A stretch of 29,792 nucleotides of DNA from a virus (Duplodnaviria > Heunggongvirae > Uroviricota > Caudoviricetes): positions 1 to 29,792 of the IMG/VR virus record IMGVR_UViG_3300012983_000032, one strand, 5' to 3'. Below the pieces are notes generated by a model. It searched no databases. It was given only the letters and a program-made list of their open reading frames with translations, and had not been told where the DNA came from. Both the position numbers and the translations under genes were made by a program. Below, one piece after another: positions 1-9,041 of this stretch (the first letter of the stretch is position 1; each line of letters begins with the position of its first letter).

Positions 1-1104
1 ATGAAAGAAGTTTCTTCTACATCATTACAACAAACTAGAAGGGATTGTGATAATGCTTTTATAAACTTTTTCAAATCAAATAATGGAAGTAGAAAAGGAA
101 AATCTGGATTTCCAAAGTTTAAATCTAAAAAAGACAATCACCAAAGTTATAGAGAACCAAATGTAAACGAAAATTGCAAGATTTTCTTTGAAAATCGTTT
201 AATTAAAATTCCAAAAGTAGGAAAAGTAATTTTCAAAGATAGGGATTTCCCTCAATGGTGGAGTCAAATAGAAAAGATTTGTTCAATGACAATTTCTAAA
301 AGTTGTAGTGGAAATTATTATGTATCAATTTTGTTTGAAATATCACCTTGTAATTACAGGGTTGAGAATAGAAAAGAGGCAATAGGGCTGGATTTTAGTC
401 CATCTGAAATGTATGTTTCTAGTGAAAACCAAACTGGAAAAGACTTCGGATATATTGCTCAAAAACAAGCCCATTCTAAAAAACTTAAAAAACTTCAAAG
501 AAGACTTGCTAGAAGGCAAATGGTGGCAGTTGAAAACTGCCCTATAAAAGTTTCTTCTAAAAATAGAGAGAAAGCGAGAATCAAACTGGCTCGGTTGGAA
601 GAACATATTGCAAATTCTAGAAAAGACTGGATTGAAAAGGAAAGTTTAAGACTAGTTCGTTCTTATGACAAAGTTGTAGTTGAAGACTTAAACTTGAAAG
701 GGATTTCAAAATTCTTGAGAAATGCCAAAAATATGAATGATACTTCTTGGTCAACATTTGTTTCAAGACTTCAAGCAAAAGGAAAAGATTACAACTGCAA
801 TGTAATCAAAGCAGATAGATATTTTCCATCTAGTCAACTTTGCTCTAAATGTGGATTTCAATATCACGATTTGAAACTTTCAGAGAGAAATTGGACTTGT
901 TGTAATTGTGGAACACATCACATTAGGGATGTGAATGCTGCAATCAATTTGAAAAATTATGTACCGTGGGAAGCACGGGAACTTAAGCCTGTGGAGAGTT
1001 CTAAGGTTGCAAACTTAGCAATGCTTGCTTTGCAAGCAACCGAACTCGATGAAGCAGGAAGCACTTTACAGGCGACTAAGTGCAAGAATCTGCCGAATCT
1101 TTAG
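1..1104 (+). CDS. tnpB: TnpB RNA-guided endonuclease (IS200/IS605 family), 5' part outside window (element A)
   Basis: RuvC motifs intact (IGLDFS, VVVEDL, RDVNAAIN), Zn finger CSKCG...CCNCG, roughly 90% identical by eye to the 6043-7413 protein. The Met at position 1 is internal by comparison with that copy. Confidence 0.95.
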   Translation: MKEVSSTSLQQTRRDCDNAFINFFKSNNGSRKGKSGFPKFKSKKDNHQSYREPNVNENCKIFFENRLIKIPKVGKVIFKDRDFPQWWSQIEKICSMTISKSCSGNYYVSILFEISPCNYRVENRKEAIGLDFSPSEMYVSSENQTGKDFGYIAQKQAHSKKLKKLQRRLARRQMVAVENCPIKVSSKNREKARIKLARLEEHIANSRKDWIEKESLRLVRSYDKVVVEDLNLKGISKFLRNAKNMNDTSWSTFVSRLQAKGKDYNCNVIKADRYFPSSQLCSKCGFQYHDLKLSERNWTCCNCGTHHIRDVNAAINLKNYVPWEARELKPVESSKVANLAMLALQATELDEAGSTLQATKCKNLPNL

Positions 1105-1121
1105 TTCGGCAGAGGCTTCAA
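1..1121 (+). mobile_element. IS200/IS605 (IS1341-like) element A, right part; right end TTCAA at 1117-1121
   Basis: GAAT (1086-1089) at the foot of subterminal hairpin TCTGCCGAA-tctttag-TTCGGCAGA (1089-1113), then GGCTTCAA. Similarity to element B stops exactly after TTCAA. Matches the IS608 right-end pattern (guide GAAT, cleavage site TCAA). Confidence 0.9.
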
Positions 1122-1141
1122 AAATTGAGAATATTGAGATG
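961..1141 (+). ncRNA. Predicted omegaRNA of element A (scaffold about 961-1121, guide about 1122-1141 AAATTGAGAATATTGAGATG)
   Basis: Overlaps the tnpB 3' end as known for TnpB omegaRNAs. Three stems covary with element B. The 5' boundary is approximate. Confidence 0.75.
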
Positions 1142-1193
1142 AATTTGGATTTAATTTTAGCTTTAAAGCCTTATTACTAATTGTATTAGACAT
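1122..1193 (-). pseudogene. tnpB: N-terminal fragment of a third tnpB (element C), MSNTISNKALKLKLNPNSSQYSQF, cut by element A
   Basis: ATG at 1193 with AAGGA RBS. Aligns with HKSLKLRIYPTEEQSQL of tnpB in element B. The leader is homologous to that of element B and equally long between the conserved CTAAACA and ATGTCT. Too short for the ORF track. Confidence 0.8.
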
Positions 1194-1222
1194 AATCAAA
1201 ACTATTCCTTTTGGTTGTGTTT

Positions 1223-1259
1223 AGAAGAAAGTCAGTATTTGCAGTACTGGCTTTTTTCG
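1223..1259. terminator. Bidirectional terminator-like hairpin inside the element C left end
   Basis: AAGAAA-GTCAGTAT-ttgca-GTACTGGC-TTTTTT; stem covaries with the copy at 7451-7470. Confidence 0.7.
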
Positions 1260-1297
1260 TTTATATAGTAATTAGTTGTTTTAAATCAAAAAGAACT

Positions 1298-1312
1298 GTT
1301 AATATAGTAATT
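1298..1312 (+). promoter_or_regulatory. Outward-facing GTTAATATA promoter-like motif in element C left end
   Basis: Same motif as at 7527 and upstream of several phage genes; resembles an extended -10 (TG-n-TAATAT). Confidence 0.5.
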
Positions 1313-1421
1313 ATGGCAATTCATATGCCACACTGAAGATGTGGCATTTTTCTTGCCATTTTTACATAAATGTACGTATTAAATTTATAAAGTTTCTTTT
1401 AGAGTATAAGGAAAAATTAGT

Positions 1422-1847
1422 ATGATAACAACTTTATTGGGAATATTGTTTATTGTGGTAGGTGTATATATTTGTATGAATAGTGGAAGGTCAGTTTTCT
1501 CAATTCTTAAAGAGTGTAAATCACTTAAAAGACAGTACCTATCTGCATTAGACGAATTGGCAAATAGAATCGAGTATGTAACTAATCATATCCCGGAAAA
1601 TGAAATGGAACAAATTCGTTTTTTGAAAATATCTGACGTTATTCAGAATAAAGAAAATAAGGCTATGTTAATATTAAAATTGTATAGTCTTTCTGACGCC
1701 ATTAGAATAGATAAAAAAAAGACACAGAAAAAAATTTGGTTTGACTACTACCCAATTAAGTTATTCTATTTCAAATATGGGAAGGCTCTGAAAGAAATAC
1801 CTGAATTACAAAAGGAGATACCTGAAAAAGATGTCATTTATGAATAA
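1422..1847 (+). CDS. Hypothetical membrane-anchored protein
   Basis: 141 aa ORF, AAGGA RBS, hydrophobic N-terminal helix (TTLLGILFIVVGVYICM). Confidence 0.7.
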   Translation: MITTLLGILFIVVGVYICMNSGRSVFSILKECKSLKRQYLSALDELANRIEYVTNHIPENEMEQIRFLKISDVIQNKENKAMLILKLYSLSDAIRIDKKKTQKKIWFDYYPIKLFYFKYGKALKEIPELQKEIPEKDVIYE

Positions 1848-3696
1848 GATTTATAGGGACACTGTTAGGTCACCTACTATTAATAATCCAATTACTAATA
1901 ATCCAATTACTTACAATTCTTCAGGTGATAATTTTGATATGGATAATTGGAGAATAGAAGCAATAAATCCTTGGATAAATATGGTATCAAATAATATGAA
2001 AATTGATAAACTTGACGACTATCAGATGAATTTTGAGGGCGTTAGTAATAATGCTACTCCTAAAACATCAAAAAAGGTTAAATTAAACATTACTCGTGAT
2101 ACTATCGCACTTTCTTTGGAAGTTTCCAAGAGAAGCGGTGTACCAGTATTATTTCTTTCAAATCCTGGTGAAGGTAAAACCACTGGGGTTATGACTTTCG
2201 GTAAGTATCATAAACTTCACGTTGAATTCCTTATGGGGTCACAATACACACAAGAAGACGTATTGGGATTTATGACAAATACTGGTAAAGAATATCTTGA
2301 AGTTAAAATTCCTGAGTGGTATTATCGTATTATGGAATATACAAAATATCATTGGGAAATTAAAGACGACCCAAATTTTGAATTAGGGTATACAGAACGT
2401 AAAAAACTTATAGATGAAAAAAAATTATATTTTGCATACAAAGATAAAAAATTGACAGAAGAACAACTCCTTGATATGGATATCCCTTTTAACAAAATTG
2501 ATATTGATGCAAGAGTTAAGGAAATTGATAAAGAACTTGAGGACAGATTTGTTTGGACTCCACCAAGAGGAACAATCCTATTTTTGGATGAACTTTCTGC
2601 CGCTGCACCTACAGTACAGGCTGCATTACTTAGGCTTTGTCATGAAAAGAAATTGAGAGGTAATAATTCTCTTCCAAAAGATTGTATTGTATGTGCAGCA
2701 GGTAACTTTAAAAGAAACTTACCTAGTTTTATGGAGATTATTGCACCAGAGTTAAATCGTTTCTGTATAATAAACTTACTTAGAGGTAATCATAATTCTA
2801 GATATGAAAATATCGGAAAAGATTTAGTTTTTGAGGCAACCCAAGACTTTTATGAAAATACTAATAATTTCCCAGAGTATAAAGACACTTTTGAGTTTTC
2901 TCAGTCTATGAAAACTAAGTTTTTAGAAAAGTATCGTAATGGTCTTATTAAATTATTTGAAGAATATTCTAAAACTGACTCTCCAAATGGAGTTTTGAAC
3001 CTAAGAAATACAAATTTTGACGGAATGTTTGATGGACTAGAAGAAGTTCCAGAAATTTCAAACTTCATATCTGTAAGAAGTATTTCTTATTTTGCAAGAG
3101 TACTACGTGCCCTTTGTGAACTTAGGATAACACCTTCATACCTTGATGACGCATATAAGAAATTTTCAGTAGGGCTTTTAGGACTTGGAACAAACTCTTG
3201 GGATAGTAAAGCGGACGATAGAGAATTACAGATTTCAACATATCAGAAGTCATTAAACTTTATGGTAGGTGATATCTTGTCAGAGTTTAATCATCCGTCT
3301 AAGGATAGTATTACTTTAAGTAATATGTCACATGGAGCCGCAACTAAAGCAGAAATTAAAAAGGGTTCATTAGCAGAAACTATTAATAATTTCATAAATG
3401 GTGATAATAAAGACATACAAGATATATTTAATAAAATTCAACAAAGGTTCCCTACTCACGCTGTATCTGCGTATAATGCAATGCAGACTGTTTTTTCTGG
3501 TCCTCTTTTAGATATTATCGACTGGCGAGCAGACTATGAGGCAGTAAAAATGTTGATAATGGTATTAGATAGTAATGTAGATAAAGAATACTTAGATATT
3601 TATACTAATAGTCTGAAAACAGTTTGTAATAATTACGAGTTTTATTATAATAGTAGTTTGGCATCTATAACTTTAAATGACTTAAAAGAGGTATAA
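1831..3696 (+). CDS. MoxR-like AAA+ ATPase
   Basis: Walker A SNPGEGKT, Walker B ILFLDELS followed by AAPTVQAALLRL, then AAGN and APELNRF; adjacent vWA gene. Exact start uncertain. Confidence 0.85.
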   Translation: MSFMNKIYRDTVRSPTINNPITNNPITYNSSGDNFDMDNWRIEAINPWINMVSNNMKIDKLDDYQMNFEGVSNNATPKTSKKVKLNITRDTIALSLEVSKRSGVPVLFLSNPGEGKTTGVMTFGKYHKLHVEFLMGSQYTQEDVLGFMTNTGKEYLEVKIPEWYYRIMEYTKYHWEIKDDPNFELGYTERKKLIDEKKLYFAYKDKKLTEEQLLDMDIPFNKIDIDARVKEIDKELEDRFVWTPPRGTILFLDELSAAAPTVQAALLRLCHEKKLRGNNSLPKDCIVCAAGNFKRNLPSFMEIIAPELNRFCIINLLRGNHNSRYENIGKDLVFEATQDFYENTNNFPEYKDTFEFSQSMKTKFLEKYRNGLIKLFEEYSKTDSPNGVLNLRNTNFDGMFDGLEEVPEISNFISVRSISYFARVLRALCELRITPSYLDDAYKKFSVGLLGLGTNSWDSKADDRELQISTYQKSLNFMVGDILSEFNHPSKDSITLSNMSHGAATKAEIKKGSLAETINNFINGDNKDIQDIFNKIQQRFPTHAVSAYNAMQTVFSGPLLDIIDWRADYEAVKMLIMVLDSNVDKEYLDIYTNSLKTVCNNYEFYYNSSLASITLNDLKEV

Positions 3697-3697
3697 T

Positions 3698-3949
3698 ATG
3701 CTTTATAATGTTTTATCACAAATTGAAAATACTGACGCAATTCTTAAAGGCTTAGACGAATATGAGTGGTTACAATATCATACTAAGGATAAAATTTTTG
3801 TGAAAAACTTAGTACCCATACCTTATGACAAAATAAAAGGAATTTTTGTACCTTTAACTTCTGAGGATAAGAATAATAATAAGACTGTAATGCTTACAGC
3901 TTTAACTGTAAAAGGATTCCAAAATTATATCGCTAAGTTAGAATCATGA
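3698..3949 (+). CDS. Hypothetical protein
   Basis: 83 aa, GAGG RBS, tightly coupled between the AAA+ and vWA genes. Confidence 0.7.
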   Translation: MLYNVLSQIENTDAILKGLDEYEWLQYHTKDKIFVKNLVPIPYDKIKGIFVPLTSEDKNNNKTVMLTALTVKGFQNYIAKLES

Positions 3950-5520
3950 CCAAAGAAGAAGTATTTGAAAAATTTAATGACACTATTTCTCATATACCTA
4001 ATATAAACTGGGTAAACTATGACACACAGATGGCAAAACTTGATACGTACTGTTGGAGATATATTCATTCAGATAATACGTCGTCTAAAAATTTAGCATA
4101 TATGTGTCGTAGTAAAGGGGAAACAGGAGTATACGAACTTTTTATTAATAAACTTATCCCTTTTGATATTAAAAATGCAACTGTTCTTCACGAAGTAGGT
4201 CACGCCGTTTTAGGTCATACTCTTTCTTGGAAAGCACAACAAGCAATAGGTATAGATAAAGTAAAAAGTCATTGGTCAACATTAAAAAATTATTTTAATA
4301 AAAAAGGTAAACCTATAAAATCCCCAACAGAAGAAATCTGTAAAAAGATTTATAATATGATATTAAACGTTGCTATGGACTTTGAAGTTAATAGTAAAAT
4401 GTTTGAACCTTTAGAATATAAATGGGCTCGTTTATTTTTCAATTTTGCATATATCTCTGTTATTCTACAAAATGACGAAAAAATTAAAAATGAAGAACTT
4501 GAAGATGTATTTAACTTTTTACAGGCACTTGACACTTTTAATGGGAATATAGACTTTTCTGCTGAAACTTTCCCTGAGTGGATTATGCCTTTCTGTTGGG
4601 CAGAAGATTATGGATTCCCAGATAGATTGTCTTATGGGCAATATATTGATTTAATTTTAATGAACCCTGATAAGTTCTTCCCAGAATTTAAAGATAAAGT
4701 TGGCAAAAAAGGATTTGATTTTACTGACGGCAATGATACTGACTCCATTAGTGAAGAAGAAATTGACGAGTTTATTACACAATATGGAGACTCCGACGAA
4801 GAAGAAATGGAAGTCCTAATGGATGACGAAAAAAAAGGTAAATATTCTTCACACGCAGATGGTGATAAAAAGTATGTAGAGTCCTCAGATTTTAGTAAAC
4901 TTGACCAAACAGAACTTGAAAATTTCTTATACAAGAATTGTTTTAATAAAAGTATAAAAGACACAAGAACTGACTATCTGTATAACTATAATAGATGTAA
5001 GTTTGGGGGAGATATACTAATCTCTAAACAAAATAAAGAAGAATTATGGCGACCAGGAAATATATTTTTATTGGTAGACTGTTCAGGCTCTATTGAAGAT
5101 ATTGTTATTGATATAGTGTTAAAAAGTGTTCCAAATGTTAGCAGAAAATGTGGTCCAAAATCTAGAGTTATTTGGTGGGATACTACCTGTCGAGGTGATT
5201 ACCCAATGTCAACTAGTAGAGTACCAAATAACTATGGTGGGGGTACAGAAATTGCACTTGGAATAGAATATATCAAAAAGAATTATTTACAATTTAATAA
5301 TGATAAACTTATAATCCTAAGTGATTATTATGATGATATTTCAAGTTGGTTAAGTGAAGTTTCAGACATAAAGTGTGATGTAATTGGTATATGTTGGGCA
5401 CAAAATAAATATGGTAAAGGAAGAGATTTTTTATACCATAGAGGATGGTATAATGACTCCAAGTCTACTATAGACACATTCTTAGATAAAGTTAAGACCA
5501 AATTTATAAGTATCGATTAA
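3946..5520 (+). CDS. Metallopeptidase-motif plus vWA domain protein (DUF2201-like), MoxR partner
   Basis: HEVGH (HExxH), NVAMDFEVN, acidic linker, MIDAS-like LLVDCSGSI and GGGTEI. Confidence 0.85.
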   Translation: MTKEEVFEKFNDTISHIPNINWVNYDTQMAKLDTYCWRYIHSDNTSSKNLAYMCRSKGETGVYELFINKLIPFDIKNATVLHEVGHAVLGHTLSWKAQQAIGIDKVKSHWSTLKNYFNKKGKPIKSPTEEICKKIYNMILNVAMDFEVNSKMFEPLEYKWARLFFNFAYISVILQNDEKIKNEELEDVFNFLQALDTFNGNIDFSAETFPEWIMPFCWAEDYGFPDRLSYGQYIDLILMNPDKFFPEFKDKVGKKGFDFTDGNDTDSISEEEIDEFITQYGDSDEEEMEVLMDDEKKGKYSSHADGDKKYVESSDFSKLDQTELENFLYKNCFNKSIKDTRTDYLYNYNRCKFGGDILISKQNKEELWRPGNIFLLVDCSGSIEDIVIDIVLKSVPNVSRKCGPKSRVIWWDTTCRGDYPMSTSRVPNNYGGGTEIALGIEYIKKNYLQFNNDKLIILSDYYDDISSWLSEVSDIKCDVIGICWAQNKYGKGRDFLYHRGWYNDSKSTIDTFLDKVKTKFISID

Positions 5521-5539
5521 TGGAGTTAATATATTAGGT

Positions 5540-6010
5540 ATGAAGTTATTAGGATTTTGTGATTGGTATTCAGAAATAGTAGACTACAAAGGTAAGCAAT
5601 TTGAAGTTCATTCTTTCTCAAAAGAATACGATATACTTAAGAAAAATGAAGAATGCAAAATTACCGCCGAAAAGCTTGAAGTAACAAGAATTAACGCATG
5701 GAAATTACTTGAAAAAGTCTTTCTCGAAAAAGGCTGGAAATTCCCAGGTAATGAGTATCAGGACTATCTTATACCTGTAATATTGGACGACGAGGGTATT
5801 ACTTGGAAAATATGTATCAGTCAAAGGTCTTGGGGTAATTTTATATATTTTCTAGAGTGCAAAAGAAAAGGTATTGAACCAAATGATGAAATGGGGTATA
5901 TGGATTGGTATATTCAGTATGGAAAAAACTATAATGAAAAGCCTAAATATCCTAAAAAAAATTGGATGTTAACAACCGTAAAATATGAAAGTGTAAACGA
6001 GGATATATGA
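5540..6010 (+). CDS. Hypothetical protein
   Basis: 156 aa ORF; GTTAATATA motif at 5525. Confidence 0.75.
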   Translation: MKLLGFCDWYSEIVDYKGKQFEVHSFSKEYDILKKNEECKITAEKLEVTRINAWKLLEKVFLEKGWKFPGNEYQDYLIPVILDDEGITWKICISQRSWGNFIYFLECKRKGIEPNDEMGYMDWYIQYGKNYNEKPKYPKKNWMLTTVKYESVNEDI

Positions 6011-6186
6011 TAGAAGTTAATATTGTTGAAGCCTGTCCTCGGCTAAAGACCGAGGACATTCCTACCACTAGTCGCCTGTGAGTGGTTTCCTGCTTCATCG
6101 AGTTCGGTTGCTTGCAAAGCAAGCATTGCTAAGTTTGCAACCTTAGAACTCTCCACAGGCTTAAGTTCCCGACCTTCCATCGGTAC
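6006..6186 (-). ncRNA. Predicted omegaRNA of element B (scaffold about 6186-6026, guide CAATATTAACTTCTATCATA)
   Basis: Homologous to the element A 3' region with compensatory stems. The guide is the flank after TTCAA. 5' boundary approximate. Confidence 0.75.
6007..6025 (+). pseudogene. Original first codons (MIEVNI-) of the gene interrupted by element B
   Basis: GAGGA RBS at 5999-6003, ATGA overlap with the upstream stop. Joining 6025 to 7595 gives in-frame MIEVNIDKRRPLTEFNLDN. Confidence 0.85.
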
Positions 6187-7413
6187 ATAGTTTTTCAAAT
6201 TGATTGCCGCATTTACATCACGAATGTGATGTGTTCCACAATTACGACAAGTCCAATTTCTCTCTGAAAGTTTCAAATCGTGATATTGAAATCCACATTT
6301 AGAGCAAAGTTGACTAGATGGAAAATATCTATCTGATTTGATTACGTTACAGTTGTAATCTTTTCCTTTTGATTGAAGTCTTGAAACAAATGTTGACCAA
6401 GAAGTGTCATTCATATTTTTGGCATTTCTTAGAAACTTGCTTATTCCTTTTAGGTTTAAGTCTTCAACTACAACTTTGTCATAAGAACGAACTAATCTTA
6501 AAGTTTCTTTCTCAATCCAATCCTTTCTGCTATTGACAATATGTTCTTCCAATCGAGCCAGCTTGGTTCTCGCTTTTTCTCGATTTTTAGAAGAAACTTT
6601 TCTAGAGCAGTTTTCAACTGCCACCATTTGTTTTCTAGCAAATCTTTTTTGAAGTTTTTTCAATTTTTTAGAATGAGCTTGTTTTTGAGCAATATATCCG
6701 AAATCCTTTCCAGTTTGGTTTTCACTAGAAACGTACATTTCAGATGGACTAAAATCCAATCCTATTGCTTCTTTTCTATTTTCAACCTTATAATTACAAG
6801 GTGATATTTTAAACAAAATTGATACATAATAATTTCCACTACAACTTTTAGAAATTGTCATTGAACATAATTTTTCTATTTGACCCCACCATTTAGGAAA
6901 AGCCCTATCTTTGAAAGTCACTTTTCCTACTTTTGGAATTTTTATTAAACGACTTTCAAAGAAAATTTTGCAATTTTCATTTACATTTGGTTCTCTATAT
7001 GATTGACGATTATCTTTTTTTGATTTAAACTTTGGAAATCCAGACTTTCCTTTTCTACTTCCATTATTTGATTTGAAAAAGTTTATAAAAGCTTGGTCAC
7101 AGTCTCTTCTAGATTGTTGTAAACTTGTTGAAGAAACTTCTTTCATATATGGATAAATTTCTTTCCACTCTTTTTCTGTTTTAGGCTTAAAGTTTTTATA
7201 GATATCTTTTGATTTTATTTCTCTTTCTTCTTTTGGGATAGGTAGAAGGTTATCGATGTAAAATTCGTTTCTTTCTTGCAAATGTTCATTGTATAGTTTT
7301 CTACAACAACCAAAAGTTTGATTTATGAGTTGAGACTGTTCTTCTGTAGGGTAAATTCTTAATTTAAGAGATTTATGTTGAATTATATAATTTTTGACTA
7401 ATTTATCAGACAT
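6043..7413 (-). CDS. tnpB: TnpB RNA-guided endonuclease, full length
   Basis: N-terminal KSLKLRIYPTEEQ..TFGCCRKLYN, intact RuvC D/E/D, Zn finger CSKCG...CRNCG. ATG 7413 with AAGGG RBS is preferred over TTG 7419. Confidence 0.96.
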   Translation of the reverse strand: MSDKLVKNYIIQHKSLKLRIYPTEEQSQLINQTFGCCRKLYNEHLQERNEFYIDNLLPIPKEEREIKSKDIYKNFKPKTEKEWKEIYPYMKEVSSTSLQQSRRDCDQAFINFFKSNNGSRKGKSGFPKFKSKKDNRQSYREPNVNENCKIFFESRLIKIPKVGKVTFKDRAFPKWWGQIEKLCSMTISKSCSGNYYVSILFKISPCNYKVENRKEAIGLDFSPSEMYVSSENQTGKDFGYIAQKQAHSKKLKKLQKRFARKQMVAVENCSRKVSSKNREKARTKLARLEEHIVNSRKDWIEKETLRLVRSYDKVVVEDLNLKGISKFLRNAKNMNDTSWSTFVSRLQSKGKDYNCNVIKSDRYFPSSQLCSKCGFQYHDLKLSERNWTCRNCGTHHIRDVNAAINLKNYVPMEGRELKPVESSKVANLAMLALQATELDEAGNHSQATSGRNVLGL

Positions 7414-7442
7414 TCGCAATACTACCCTTATTGTGTTTGTTT

Positions 7443-7478
7443 AGAAGAAAGCTAGGATTGCCGTCCTGGCTTTTTTCG
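7443..7478. terminator. Bidirectional terminator-like hairpin in element B left end
   Basis: AAGAAA-GCTAGGAT-tgcc-GTCCTGGC-TTTTTT; covaries with 1231-1251. Confidence 0.7.
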
Positions 7479-7526
7479 TTTCTATATAATTAGTTAGTAT
7501 AATTTAAAAAGACTCAAGTTTATATA

Positions 7527-7541
7527 GTTAATATAGTAATT
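7527..7541 (+). promoter_or_regulatory. Outward-facing GTTAATATA promoter-like motif in element B left end
   Basis: GTTAATATAGTAATT is conserved with element C and points into the interrupted gene. Confidence 0.5.
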
Positions 7542-7569
7542 ATGGCAATTCATATGCCACTCTAAAGAA

Positions 7570-8490
7570 GTGGCATTTTTCTTGCCATTTTTCTATAAAA
7601 GAAGACCTTTAACAGAATTTAATCTTGATAATATTAAAGAAGGTATAACTTTTATTCATAATGAGAATAAAGTTAAATTATTTGTAACCAACGGTTATAT
7701 TGATATTAAACCTAACCCAACTTCTGACTGGTGGAACGTTAATGCCTTTGATAAGTATTCAGACGAAATTTTAGGAGTTCTTAAAAAAGAGCTTTACAAA
7801 AATCCAAAAATTGTAAAAGTAGCTGAATCCCTTGGTAGTGGTGAAAAAGAATATTGGTACTTTGACACAGAACATAATAATTTATTTTATATCGATGACA
7901 AAGGTAAGTTACATTATCATACTGCAAAAGATAATATCTCATATGAACTTAAATTAGAAAGTGCATATGATAGGTTTCATATAAATCGTGAAATAATTAC
8001 TGAAGATTACCAACTTACCCCAGACGACCTTGAAGAATTAAAGGACACAGGCCTTGACCTTGAAATATTTAGAGTACATTTTATCCGCAAGTATAAAGGT
8101 CAATACAAGAATCGTGATATGGTTCGTTACCTTAAGTCTGACTTTATTTATAAGTACAAGTTCTTTTTCAAGTGTAAAAGATGTGGTAAAGAAACATTCC
8201 ATTGGCACAAACATATTCCTGGCGCAATGGTAGACTATTTTGGGCCATATTATTGTGAAGACTGTAAAGAAATTGCAGAGAAAGAAAAAAAGGAAGAGTA
8301 TGACAGAAAATACAATTTCGACCCGGAATTTAGAAAACAGGAAGACGAATTAAAAGAGTTTGCTAAAAGTATTAATATTATAAATGTACGTCCTCAAACG
8401 ACTTTTTCAAAACTATTTGAAGAAAGACCAATGGAACCACCAAGGGATGAACTATTTGCTACACATGAATTAAGATTCTGCAAGAATTAA
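7570..8490 (+). CDS. Body of the interrupted phage gene (CxxC...CxxC zinc-binding hypothetical protein); 7570-7594 is element-derived
   Basis: CKRC and CEDC motifs. Native sequence resumes at 7595. The only start upstream of the junction in this frame is GTG 7570, inside the element. Confidence 0.8.
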   Translation: MAFFLPFFYKRRPLTEFNLDNIKEGITFIHNENKVKLFVTNGYIDIKPNPTSDWWNVNAFDKYSDEILGVLKKELYKNPKIVKVAESLGSGEKEYWYFDTEHNNLFYIDDKGKLHYHTAKDNISYELKLESAYDRFHINREIITEDYQLTPDDLEELKDTGLDLEIFRVHFIRKYKGQYKNRDMVRYLKSDFIYKYKFFFKCKRCGKETFHWHKHIPGAMVDYFGPYYCEDCKEIAEKEKKEEYDRKYNFDPEFRKQEDELKEFAKSINIINVRPQTTFSKLFEERPMEPPRDELFATHELRFCKN

Positions 8491-8591
8491 GTTCTAATAC
8501 TATTCAAAAAAGAATGGTTCATTTTTCTAAAAAATTATAGAAAACTAGATTTCTGTGTTAATATAGTATTAGATGAAATTGGGGGTAAAAA

Positions 8592-9041
8592 ATGGATGAT
8601 TGGACACTTATGAAACCAATAAATGACTTATACGCATTACAGAGTAGAGTCATGAAAGTTGAAATGACGCTTGATGAATATATAACAAGTGGCAAAAAGA
8701 ATATTTTATCAGGAACAGATAATTTTGATAATTTATTTGCACGACTTGAAGAAGTTCATAATGGGAAAAGAGAATTTATTATGGATGGGGATGTCCTTCT
8801 TTCTGAAAAAAATACAAATTGTTCTTCATTGGAAGATGCAAAAGAATTTTGGAAAAATACAGTTATTGATATTACAAAAAATATCAAATCTCACATAGAT
8901 AATATTTCTAAAGTAAGTGATGATTTTTCAACATACCCTATATGGCTACAATTAAACTGTGAATTTCTAGTACAGAAATTCTACTCTTATCTTATTGAAT
9001 ATATAACAAAAGACCCTGATATCAGTGACATTTCTTTTTAA
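8592..9041 (+). CDS. Hypothetical protein
   Basis: 149 aa, GGGGG RBS-like sequence, GTTAATATA at 8557. Confidence 0.75.
   Translation: MDDWTLMKPINDLYALQSRVMKVEMTLDEYITSGKKNILSGTDNFDNLFARLEEVHNGKREFIMDGDVLLSEKNTNCSSLEDAKEFWKNTVIDITKNIKSHIDNISKVSDDFSTYPIWLQLNCEFLVQKFYSYLIEYITKDPDISDISF

What the first reader, a model, noticed from the sequence alone, without database searches (positions are those of the whole stretch)
7414..7594. Element left end is a phage-adapted expression cassette that may rescue the gene it interrupts
Seen in both left ends (1194-1365 and 7414-7594): a covarying bidirectional terminator; an inward CTAATTA motif facing tnpB; an outward GTTAATATAGTAATT directly followed by a 7-codon ORF (MAIHMPH-TGA vs MAIHMPL-TAA, stop kept in the hairpin loop); and a GTG 4 nt later. 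In element B this GTG is in frame with the interrupted gene and replaces MIEVNID with MAFFLPFFY. Both motifs also precede ordinary phage genes. Inference: the end stops antisense read-through, re-initiates transcription, and uses a leaderless mini-ORF to melt the hairpin and re-initiate translation. This would be a splicing-free way to make antisense insertions harmless, and it would tie tnpB to the phage transcription programme. The frame match alone has a 1-in-3 chance.
Basis: partly seen in the sequence, partly recalled or inferred. Interest (0 to 1): 0.8.

Follow-up and report, generated by a model that had tools for sequence, protein, structure and literature searches.

The report
TnpB transposon end with outward promoter
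The left end of a small TnpB transposon in a giant gut or rumen phage holds a real terminator, the hairpin its transposase needs and an outward copy of the phage's own promoter, so it may restart transcription of interrupted genes, but the proposed mini-gene trick and reading-frame bias do not hold up.

Summary
The region is the left end (LE) of a non-autonomous IS200/IS605-type, tnpB-only element. I found 41 independent insertions of this family in viral and metagenome contigs, all next to the target TTTAT.

Supported:
- The terminator hairpin covaries strongly (21 of 21 full ends fold, at least 9 different stems).
- The outward GTTAATATA box, with an ATG 15 nt after its G, matches this phage's own promoter plus leaderless-gene layout. 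It is kept in most family members.
- Element A sits inside an operon whose four intact downstream genes have no other promoter box.
- Homologs confirm that element B, and a second element (L052), replace the first 7-8 codons of conserved genes with an in-frame LE start.

Not supported:
- The ATG, the loop stop and the GTG are all parts of the transposase-type DNA hairpin. The T and G of the ATG covary with their stem partners, and about 60% of the 41 sites have no ATG there.
- The frame match is expected 67% of the time from target sequence and codon use.
- Orientation is unbiased (14 against 18).
- Element A is out of frame.

No RNA data could be obtained. The scan had already noted the promoter box and the empty site in this genome. 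Verdict: a new variant of known kinds (IS200-type LE terminator, IS outward promoter).

The parts
6026..7594 (-). Element B: a non-autonomous IS200/IS605-type tnpB-only element of 1569 bp
   Evidence: Deleting it restores a 915-nt gene colinear with four homologs. The target TTTAT abuts the LE.
6043..7413 (-). tnpB gene (456 aa)
   Evidence: Pfam HTH_OrfB_IS605, OrfB_IS605 and Cas12f1-like_TNB, all above their cut-offs.
6034..6058 (.). Right-end hairpin (9-bp stem, loop CTAAAGA). The right end begins with TTGAAGCC at 6026.
   Evidence: It has the same loop as the LE hairpin, and the stem differs between copies.
6087..6159 (-). Omega-RNA scaffold (RAGATH-18-like)
   Evidence: Rfam RF03064, 35.8 bits, E 6e-4, below the gathering score. 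The same hit occurs at 988-1060 on the plus strand.
7444..7477 (.). Bidirectional intrinsic-terminator-like hairpin lying between the inward promoter box and tnpB
   Evidence: Folds at -19.3 kcal/mol. Scored as a plus-strand terminator. 21 of 21 full LEs fold at -18 to -24 kcal/mol, with at least 9 different stems.
7487..7493 (-). Inward CTAATTA box, a candidate tnpB promoter of the phage's second promoter-like class
   Evidence: 44 genome hits, 32 of them intergenic, several 9-13 nt before an ATG. The ATTAG core is nearly invariant in the family alignment.
7527..7535 (+). Outward GTTAATATA box (extended -10-like). This is the phage's main promoter box.
   Evidence: Present in 14 of 15 distinct sub-family-1 LEs, in L025 and in the autonomous element L078.
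7542..7565 (+). Seven-codon mini-ORF (MAIHMPL, stop TAA). Read here as a by-product of the hairpin.
   Evidence: Its ATG lies in the outer stem and its stop in the loop. There is no ATG in sub-families 2 and 3.
7542..7588 (.). LE subterminal hairpin of the type bound by Y1 transposases. Outer stem 7542-7548 / 7582-7588, inner stem 7554-7561 / 7569-7576, loop CTAAAGA.
   Evidence: RNAalifold gives 14 pairs, 5 of them with compensatory changes. As RNA it folds at -19.6 kcal/mol.
7570..8490 (+). Frame opened by the LE GTG and fused to the interrupted 304-codon gene. The gene's own part starts at 7595.
7595..7599 (+). ATAAA, the complement of the TTTAT target (TAM) that abuts the LE
   Evidence: All 41 unique family insertions show it, or a one-base variant.
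6007..6025 (+). Detached native start of the interrupted gene (MIEVNI + G), overlapping the stop of the upstream gene as ATGA
1194..1365 (-). LE of element A: terminator 1225-1259, CTAATTA 1275-1269, box 1298-1306, mini-ORF 1313-1336, GTG 1341
1123..1193 (-). First ~24 codons of element A's tnpB, cut off by a nested plus-oriented element (1-1122)
1366..1424 (+). Last ~20 codons of a 92-codon gene that element A interrupts. They are read in the ATA-AAT phase, not the GTG frame.
   Evidence: tblastn of the L081 92-aa product gives residues 72-91 matching window 1363-1422 at 80% identity.

Best explanation
Positions 7414-7594 are the left end of a non-autonomous IS200/IS605-type (tnpB-only) transposon that lives in a clade of large gut or rumen phages.

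Reading from the outside in, the left end contains:
1. The target TTTAT.
2. A two-tier hairpin of the kind Y1 (TnpA) transposases recognise on single-stranded DNA.
3. An outward extended -10-type box, GTTAATATA, identical to the phage's own main promoter box.
4. An inward CTAATTA box of the phage's second promoter-like class, which probably drives tnpB.
5. A strong bidirectional intrinsic terminator between that box and tnpB.

Most likely mechanism (inferred, not shown). The terminator stops transcription that crosses the element, as in IS200, and may also attenuate tnpB. The outward promoter starts new transcripts that leave through the left end. Phage genes downstream of an antisense insertion therefore stay transcribed. 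This covers the four genes behind element A and the 5'-truncated gene behind element B.

The seven-codon ORF, its stop in the loop and the GTG are consequences of the hairpin sequence. The in-frame fusion in B follows mostly from the target sequence and codon usage. Translation of the truncated gene from the LE GTG or TTG is possible but unproven.
For: Family membership:
- tnpB domains above cut-off.
- An omega-RNA-like RAGATH-18 match.
- 41 unique insertions, all abutting ATAAA/TTTAT.
- LE and right-end hairpins share the loop CTAAAGA while their stems covary.
- A related phage record carries autonomous tnpA+tnpB elements with the same LE plan and target.

Terminator:
- 21 of 21 full LEs fold at -18 to -24 kcal/mol, with at least 9 different stem sequences.
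- It is scored as terminator-like.
- IS200 has a bidirectional LE terminator that guards against impinging transcription (PMC4513863).

Outward promoter:
- TTAATATA has 69 of 102 hits in the 13% of the genome that is intergenic, oriented towards genes.
- 12 real genes have their ATG 14-18 nt after the G of the box. In the LE the ATG is at 15 nt.
- The box is kept while its flanks vary, and it is present in L025 and in the autonomous L078.

Need for a restart:
- In the syntenic relative L081, the genes [92][141][616][83][524] lie in one operon with no box between 4786 and 9851.
- In the window, element A sits in the 92-codon gene. The only box ahead of the intact 141, 621, 83 and 524-aa genes is the LE's own, at 1298.

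Tolerated 5' insertions:
- B is inserted at nt 19 of 915 and L052 at nt 22 of 345, both in conserved genes.
- Only 4.2% of candidate target sites lie in the first 30 nt of ORFs. This gives a nominal p of 0.005-0.016.

Phage residence:
- 0 of 401 genomes of the family of a Treponema MAG hold the LE pattern.
- Bacterial MAG relatives at 50% identity have short LEs without a recognisable terminator hairpin (seen by eye).
Against: - There is no transcript, transcription-start or protein evidence.
- The inner LE hairpin (-10 kcal/mol) followed by TTTTTCTT is itself terminator-like for outward transcripts. Many of them may therefore end inside the element.
- In 18 of 32 sites the first flanking gene converges on the outward promoter. 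The box is therefore not selected only for driving neighbours.
- Some family members lack a recognisable box (sub-families 2 and 3).
- The terminator lies between the presumed tnpB promoter and tnpB, which is an odd place for a pure insulator.
- Element C shares the terminator and the CTAATTA box but not the outer LE. This suggests these two parts belong to the tnpB leader.
- dN/dS of the interrupted gene is uninformative: 0.23-0.39 against 0.18-0.27 among homologs.
Confidence: 0.55

Rival explanations
1. Leaderless translation of the seven-codon ORF melts the LE hairpin, and ribosomes re-initiate at the GTG 4 nt after the stop. This yields a working protein with MAFFLPFFY in place of MIEVNID. 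The cassette would have been selected to make antisense, in-frame insertions harmless.
For: - The box-to-ATG spacing equals that of 12 real leaderless genes.
- The mini-ORF is kept in all 16 sub-family-1 sites.
- After the junction, the only in-frame start codons near the 5' end of the truncated gene are the LE GTG 7570 and TTG 7582.
- Three homolog-verified genes (B, L052, L059) and one unverified ORF (L039) are fused in the GTG frame.
- A ribosome on the mini-ORF would also prevent the terminator-like inner hairpin from forming (inference).
Against: - The ATG, the stop and the GTG are each fixed by the DNA hairpin. The T and G of the ATG covary with partners (UA 18 / GC 12 and GC 20 / AU 11). 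The loop CTAAAGA is the same in right-end hairpins that have no ORF. The GTG is the 3' arm of the inner stem.
- 25 of 41 sites have no ATG.
- The AUG is paired in a fold of -19.6 kcal/mol, against -2.4 +/- 1.7 for real leaderless genes.
- The frame match is expected at 0.67. Getting 3 of 4 or 4 of 5 gives p = 0.6 or 0.48.
- Orientation is 14 against 18.
- Element A is out of frame and truncates its gene.
- In L059 the fusion replaces a 30-residue hydrophobic N-terminus.
Confidence: 0.12
2. The outward box makes only a short RNA of about 40 nt that ends at the LE hairpin and T-run, or it acts on the transposon itself (control of excision or hairpin extrusion, or interference with incoming transcription). 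The interrupted genes are simply dispensable or are being lost, and nothing is rescued.
For: - The inner hairpin plus TTTTTCTT is scored as a plus-strand terminator (-10 kcal/mol).
- The box is also conserved where the flanking gene converges on it (18 of 32 sites) and in an autonomous element.
- IS10, IS30, IS1999 and IS200 carry outward promoters that make regulatory antisense RNAs (PMC9330008; PMC4513863).
- Element A truncates a 92-codon gene, and a relative has lost most of the 156-codon gene, so accessory genes in this region are expendable.
Against: - The four genes behind element A are intact, the 141-aa one being 93% identical to its L081 homolog, and they have no other promoter box.
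- Two insertions within the first 22 nt of conserved genes are unlikely if position were neutral (p about 0.005-0.016).
- The outward transcript is not antisense to tnpB mRNA, because the inward box lies on the inner side of it.
Confidence: 0.25
3. The GTTAATATA and CTAATTA matches in the LE are inactive. They are AT-rich sequence kept for transposase or other DNA-level reasons, and they resemble phage promoters by chance.
For: - The LE is AT-rich, and the box is nearly palindromic.
- In L078 the reverse strand of the box overlaps a thrice-repeated inward motif, TAACTAA(A)T.
- Several sub-family-3 LEs carry only weak variants.
Against: - The exact 9-mer occurs 59 times in 219.5 kb, mostly in front of genes.
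- It is conserved in the LE while its flanks and the 6-nt spacer vary.
- It sits at the same 15-nt distance from an ATG as in real leaderless genes.
Confidence: 0.08

Closest known systems
IS200 left end (Salmonella and other enterobacteria)
   Same: It belongs to the IS200/IS605 family. [quoted passage not shown]
   Different: - In IS200 the terminator is the outermost hairpin (nt 12-34) and the transposase transcript starts after it. Here a separate transposase-type hairpin is outermost, and the terminator lies between the presumed tnpB promoter and tnpB.
- The IS200 outward RNA is antisense to the transposase leader. Here the outward box lies outside the tnpB transcript and points into the flank.
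- The cargo here is tnpB, not tnpA.
IS608 / ISDra2-type IS200/IS605 elements and IS1341-group tnpB-only elements
   Same: - Subterminal hairpins at both ends.
- No inverted terminal repeats.
- Insertion 3' of a fixed short target (here TTTAT), which also serves as the TnpB TAM.
- Omega-RNA at the right end.
- Mobilisation in trans by a Y1 TnpA (tnpA+tnpB relatives found in a sister phage).
   Different: The left end is longer (181 bp). It carries a covarying terminator and two boxes that match the resident phage's promoter classes. The family was found only in viral or metagenome contigs, not in the 401 genomes searched in the family of a Treponema MAG.
Complete outward-directed promoters of insertion sequences (for example IS10 Pout, ISAba1, ISEcp1, IS1237)
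   Same: A promoter inside the element's end reads through the end into neighbouring genes and can keep or switch them on (PMC9330008).
   Different: - Those cases are DDE-type IS elements in bacterial chromosomes or plasmids, and they were shown by experiment.
- The element here is a peel-and-paste TnpB element in a phage.
- Its promoter is of the phage's own extended -10 / leaderless type and is paired with an upstream terminator.
- Nothing has been shown experimentally.
IStrons (group I intron fused to IS605/IS607-type elements)
   Same: They are tnpB-carrying IS200/IS605 relatives that lessen the harm of inserting into genes (PMC4227781; 10.1101/2023.11.20.567912).
   Different: IStrons insert in the sense orientation and splice themselves out of the mRNA. 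Here no intron family matches (Rfam at E<=1 over 1-9000), the insertions are antisense, and any relief would come from restarting transcription rather than restoring the mRNA.
Extended -10 promoters with leaderless mRNAs
   Same: The motif T-R-T-G-n-TAATAT is followed 6-8 nt later by the ATG, which is the layout of 12 genes of this phage.
   Different: In the LE the would-be 5' AUG is buried in a hairpin of -19.6 kcal/mol, and the ORF has only 7 codons.

Membership tests
IS200/IS605 family, tnpB-only (IS1341-group-like) element | Encodes TnpB (OrfB_IS605 with a RuvC-like domain and a zinc-finger/TNB domain) | tested here: met
   Pfam PF12323, PF01385 and PF07282, all above their cut-offs.
IS200/IS605 family, tnpB-only (IS1341-group-like) element | Subterminal imperfect hairpins at both ends, and no terminal inverted repeats | tested here: met
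   LE hairpin at 7542-7588 and right-end hairpin at 6034-6058 share the loop CTAAAGA. Compensatory changes are seen across 34 LEs and 22 right ends.
IS200/IS605 family, tnpB-only (IS1341-group-like) element | Insertion 3' of a fixed 4-5 nt target, without target duplication | tested here: met
   TTTAT abuts the LE at 41 unique sites. The exact empty site was restored for B and 14 others.
IS200/IS605 family, tnpB-only (IS1341-group-like) element | A Y1 (HUH) TnpA, in cis or available in trans | tested here: inconclusive
   There is no PF01797 hit in the 219.5-kb record, which is 70% complete. Two tnpA+tnpB elements with the same LE plan occur in a related phage record.
IS200/IS605 family, tnpB-only (IS1341-group-like) element | Omega-RNA overlapping the tnpB 3' end and the right end | tested here: inconclusive
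   RAGATH-18 scores 35.8 bits, below the gathering score of 44.9, with E 6e-4, in both copies.
Intrinsic (rho-independent) terminator | A G+C-containing stem-loop followed by a U-tract and conserved as a structure | tested here: met
   Folds at -19.3 kcal/mol and is followed by TTTTTTCG. On the other strand it is followed by TTTCTTCT. 21 of 21 family members fold, with at least 9 stem sequences.
Intrinsic (rho-independent) terminator | Termination of transcripts in vivo or in vitro | not testable with these tools
   No RNA data were available.
[quoted passage not shown] | A promoter consensus inside the end, oriented outward | tested here: met
   GTTAATATA at 7527 and 1298 equals the phage's gene-oriented box.
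[quoted passage not shown] | Transcripts that start there and extend into the flanking gene | not testable with these tools
The inner hairpin plus T-run may stop them.
Leaderless mRNA / functional upstream mini-ORF | A 5'-terminal AUG that is accessible, and an ORF conserved as coding sequence | tested here: not met
   The AUG is paired in a fold of -19.6 kcal/mol, against -2.4 +/- 1.7 for real leaderless genes. There is no ATG in 25 of 41 sites, and its bases covary as stem partners.
IStron | A group I intron ribozyme at the element's 5' side | tested here: not met
   No intron family was found among the Rfam matches at E<=1 over window 1-9000.

The most novel reading that the evidence does not exclude
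A phage-resident lineage of TnpB transposons has turned its left end into an 'insulate and restart' module. The module would consist of a terminator that ends the interrupted operon's transcript, a copy of the phage's own leaderless-type promoter that restarts it, and start codons in the transposase hairpin. Translation of the mini-ORF would open the hairpin, which is also terminator-like, and allow the start codons to be used. Antisense insertions into operons and into the first codons of genes would then stay viable. This would be a splicing-free counterpart of IStrons.
Probability: 0.15. Interest if true: 0.75.

Novelty: new variant of a known kind. Interest (0 to 1): 0.45.

Why it matters
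If the outward promoter works, it would explain how a TnpB element can sit inside the operons of a giant phage, and even in the first codons of conserved genes, without silencing what lies downstream. It would also show an IS200/IS605 end that has taken up the promoter grammar of its viral host.

This gives a concrete, testable case of how selfish RNA-guided-nuclease elements lower their cost to a phage. It also gives a compact natural part (terminator, promoter, leaderless start) from an uncultivated phage-host system.

The negative results matter too. The frame match, the loop stop codon and the GTG need no adaptive explanation.

Tried and rejected
- **RNA evidence.** No expression data exist here.
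- **Searches that found nothing.**
  - Megablast of 5400-8600 against phage records gave no match.
  - Pattern-based searches in viral contigs found no relatives of the interrupted gene or of the 621-aa ATPase.
  - PHROGs and Pfam gave no family for the interrupted gene.
- **RNAalifold on the 34-sequence alignment.** It missed the terminator because of indels in the alignment. I therefore folded each copy separately.
- **Antisense orientation bias.** Rejected: 14 co-directional against 18 convergent first flanking ORFs, p = 0.6.
- **Frame bias.** Rejected: sense-strand ATAAA is read as xAT-AAA in 702 of 1041 cases in this genome, so the observed 3 of 4 or 4 of 5 is as expected.
- **Element A as an intergenic insertion.** This was my first reading and I rejected it. 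Synteny with L081 shows that A cuts a 92-codon gene at about codon 72.
- **Outward promoter and ATG as relics of a divergent tnpA.** Not supported. The autonomous relatives have tnpA co-directional with tnpB. L023 and L024 do carry a divergent leaderless RHH gene at that position.
- **Decay of the interrupted gene.** dN/dS is only slightly higher than among homologs. This is inconclusive, because a recent insertion would look the same.
- **Host-genome copies.** The LE pattern was absent from 401 sampled genomes in the family of a Treponema MAG. This means "not found in those searched", not proof of absence.
Full report
**Setting**

The window is the first 29.8 kb of a 219.5-kb IMG/VR virus record with 32% G+C, judged 70% complete. 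Earlier notes of this scan describe it as part of a phage of roughly 425 kb that probably infects Treponema. I did not test that.

Element B is a 1569-bp insertion at 6026-7594. Its tnpB gene (6043-7413, minus strand) carries all three TnpB Pfam domains. A RAGATH-18-like omega-RNA scaffold lies at its 3' end. The record holds no Y1 transposase.

The 'left end A' (1194-1365) belongs to a second minus-oriented copy. Only about 24 codons of its tnpB remain, because a third, plus-oriented copy (1-1122, TnpB 91% identical to B's) is nested in it.

**Observation**

- the hairpin with flanking A and T runs (7444-7477 and 1225-1259);
- CTAATTA facing tnpB;
- GTTAATATAGTAATT directly followed by ATG;
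- seven codons ending in a stop in the hairpin loop;
- a GTG four bases later.

Eight homologs of the interrupted gene (304-314 aa) start MIKVIIDKRRPLTEF or similar. The window gene therefore natively began MIEVNID|KRRPLTEF. Removing 6026-7594 gives a 915-nt gene of exactly the length of four homologs, whose DNA reads ATT GAT AAA AGA at the site.

**What the outer hairpin is**

A degenerate pattern for the hairpin found 37 metagenome loci and 11 viral loci. Together with A and B these make 41 different insertion sites.
- All abut ATAAA, that is TTTAT on the element's top strand.
- The structure has two tiers: an outer stem, TTCAT, an inner stem, the loop CTAAAGA, the inner stem, TTTTC and the outer stem.
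- Five of its 14 pairs show compensatory double changes.
- The right-end hairpins carry the same loop on different, covarying stems.
- A related phage record carries two autonomous tnpA+tnpB elements with the same left-end plan and target.

This is the anatomy of an IS200/IS605 end recognised by a Y1 transposase. That it is bound by TnpA is an inference.

The mini-ORF is built entirely from this structure:
- Its ATG is the first three bases of the outer stem.
- Its stop is the TAA or TGA of the conserved loop.
- The GTG is the 3' arm of the inner stem.

The T and G of the ATG change together with their partners (UA 18 / GC 12 and GC 20 / AU 11). Sub-family 2 has GTG or GTA there, and sub-family 3 (18 sites) has AGAGCC or similar with no ATG.

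**Terminator**

In all 21 full-length left ends, the segment after TTTAGAA folds into a hairpin of 14-16 bp (-18 to -24 kcal/mol). At least nine different core sequences are seen, always flanked by an A-rich run and TTTTTTCG. The consensus scan calls it terminator-like on the plus strand, and the other strand ends in TTTCTTCT.

IS200 has a comparable bidirectional left-end terminator that 'protects against impinging transcription' (PMC4513863).

There are two differences here. The hairpin lies between the CTAATTA box and tnpB. It also travels with tnpB in element C (42-43 kb), which shares this inner part but not the outer left end. It may therefore also act on the tnpB leader.

**Promoter boxes**

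*GTTAATATA.*
- TTAATATA occurs 102 times in the record, 69 of them in the 13% that my crude gene call leaves intergenic. Almost all of these point at a gene, often preceded by TRTG.
- Of the 59 exact GTTAATATA sites, 12 have an ATG 14-18 nt after the G that opens a frame of at least 50 codons. These are leaderless-type genes.
- In the left end the ATG is at 15 nt.
- The box is present in 14 of 15 distinct sub-family-1 ends while its flanks and the six-base spacer vary. Variants such as TGTTAATAT and TGCTAATTT occur in sub-family 3. The exact box occurs in L025 and in the autonomous L078.

*CTAATTA.* It has 44 hits, 32 of them intergenic, and several lie 9-13 nt before an ATG. Its core is nearly invariant in the family alignment.

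The pattern was not found in 401 genomes of the family of a Treponema MAG. The nearest bacterial MAG relatives (50% TnpB identity) have short left ends without a recognisable terminator hairpin (seen by eye).

Both motifs are therefore real elements of this phage's promoter grammar and are conserved parts of this phage-borne left end. That they fire is an inference.

**Does the end rescue genes? Evidence for**

1. *A restart is needed behind element A.* In the syntenic relative L081, the genes of 92, 141, 616, 83 and 524 codons form one operon with no promoter box between 4786 and 9851. In the window, element A cuts the 92-codon gene at about codon 72. The only box ahead of the intact 141, 621, 83 and 524-codon genes is the left end's own, just downstream of its terminator.
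2. *Insertions at the very start of conserved genes survive.* Two conserved genes carry antisense insertions within their first 22 nt: B, and L052, whose 15 homologs start MEKIIHINKNFGQ. Only 4.2% of candidate target sites lie that close to a start. This gives a nominal p of 0.005 for the reconstructed sites, or 0.016 when A, L059 and L039 are included.
3. *The only nearby starts are in the left end.* After the junction in B, the only in-frame start codons near the 5' end are the left end's GTG and TTG.

**Does the end rescue genes? Evidence against**

1. *The frame match is expected.* The target's TAA closes one frame. In this genome's ORFs, ATAAA is read as xAT-AAA in 702 of 1041 cases. The usual 25-nt distance from the GTG to the boundary therefore matches the gene's frame 67% of the time. 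Three of four homolog-verified cases match (B, L052, L059 yes; A no), or four of five with L039. This is what chance gives.
2. *There is no orientation bias.* The first ORF beyond the left end is co-directional in 14 sites and convergent in 18.
3. *Most insertions avoid gene bodies anyway.* Of 15 reconstructed empty sites, 7 are intergenic and 3 use the target's TAA as a gene's stop codon. This is the usual survival pattern of insertions at gene edges.
4. *The outward RNA is highly structured.* As RNA, the first 47 nt of the outward transcript fold at -19.6 kcal/mol with the AUG paired. The 12 real leaderless genes fold at -2.4 +/- 1.7 kcal/mol, with a minimum of -5.5. The inner hairpin plus TTTTTCTT is itself terminator-like.
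5. *Not every fusion looks functional.* In L059 the fusion would replace a 30-residue hydrophobic N-terminus, and element A simply truncates its gene.
6. *Selection on the interrupted gene is uninformative.* dN/dS is 0.23-0.39 against 0.18-0.27 among homologs.

**Reading**

The region is an IS200/IS605-type left end. Besides its transposase hairpin, it carries an IS200-like terminator and a divergent pair of boxes that match the resident phage's two promoter-like classes.

The end stops transcription that crosses the element and probably starts new outward transcription, which would keep downstream phage genes expressed. I put this at about 0.55.

The mini-ORF re-initiation mechanism, and selection for in-frame antisense insertion, are not supported by the family survey (about 0.12). 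The main rival is that outward transcripts end at the hairpin or serve the element only (about 0.25).

**Comparison and novelty**

- Outward promoters in IS ends, and an outward RNA in IS200, are well known (PMC9330008; PMC4513863).
- IStrons solve the harm problem by splicing (PMC4227781). No intron is present here.
- I found no paper describing an IS200/IS605 or TnpB element whose end carries its host phage's promoter. The library is limited.

I class this as a new variant of known kinds. Earlier notes of this scan had already described the GTTAATATA box, the CTAATTA box, the nested element and the empty site in this genome. I re-derived these points independently.

**Limits**

- Gene calls were crude: longest ORFs of at least 70 codons.
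- The family sample was ascertained with a pattern that fixes the inner stem, so its invariance is not evidence.
- The number of in-gene insertions is small, so the p-values are rough.
- No expression data could be obtained.

Noticed in passing
L081:9880-9935 (logan SRR13180945_1358), homologous to window 5540-6010: The syntenic relative has lost most of the 156-codon gene. In its place it carries a footprint of about 55 nt: TTTAT, half of a family LE hairpin in the opposite orientation, and a right-end-like ...GGTTCAA terminus. The same small region has therefore been hit by this transposon family more than once.
   Followed up: partly
L023 and L024, just upstream of tnpB: Relatives with 51% TnpB identity carry a divergent 53-codon ribbon-helix-helix gene (Pfam RHH_5 and Arc) between tnpB and the LE hairpin. 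The gene is apparently leaderless (TTGCAA-17-TATTAT, then ATG 6 nt later). Its stop codon is the TAA of the hairpin loop.
   Followed up: partly
L078 and L080 (record of L020, IMGVR_UViG_3300020079_000007): A related 188.7-kb phage record holds two autonomous IS605-type elements: a 142-aa Y1 tnpA followed by a co-directional tnpB. They have the same two-tier LE hairpin, the loop CTAAAGA and the TTTAT target. They are candidate sources of the transposase that moves the tnpB-only copies.
   Followed up: partly
L012/L034, L041 (first site), L042, L046: These are tnpB-less miniature derivatives. The LE hairpin is joined within about 150-250 nt to antisense omega-RNA and right-end sequence (MITE or PATE-like copies of the family).
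   Followed up: no
window 1363-1424: Element A is not intergenic. It cuts the homolog of a 92-codon gene at about codon 72, and the last 20 codons (INVRIKFIKFLLEYKEKLV) survive next to the LE. The 5' part lies beyond the start of the contig.
   Followed up: yes
window 6043-6049: The tnpB stop codon (TAG on the minus strand) lies in the loop of the right-end hairpin. It is the mirror image of the 'stop in the loop' at the LE, because both loops read CTAAAGA.
   Followed up: no
G000:C1:43400-43500 (element C): The third tnpB copy (50% identity) shares with A and B the leader block GGTTGTGTTTAGAAG, a covarying hairpin and CTAATTAGTTAGTA, but not the outward box or the LE hairpin. The terminator and the inward box thus seem to travel with tnpB.
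   Followed up: partly
window 5525-5542: The 156-codon gene upstream of element B is itself of the leaderless type (GTTAATATA, ATG at 15 nt). The GGAG at 5522-5525 lies 14 nt before the ATG.
   Followed up: no
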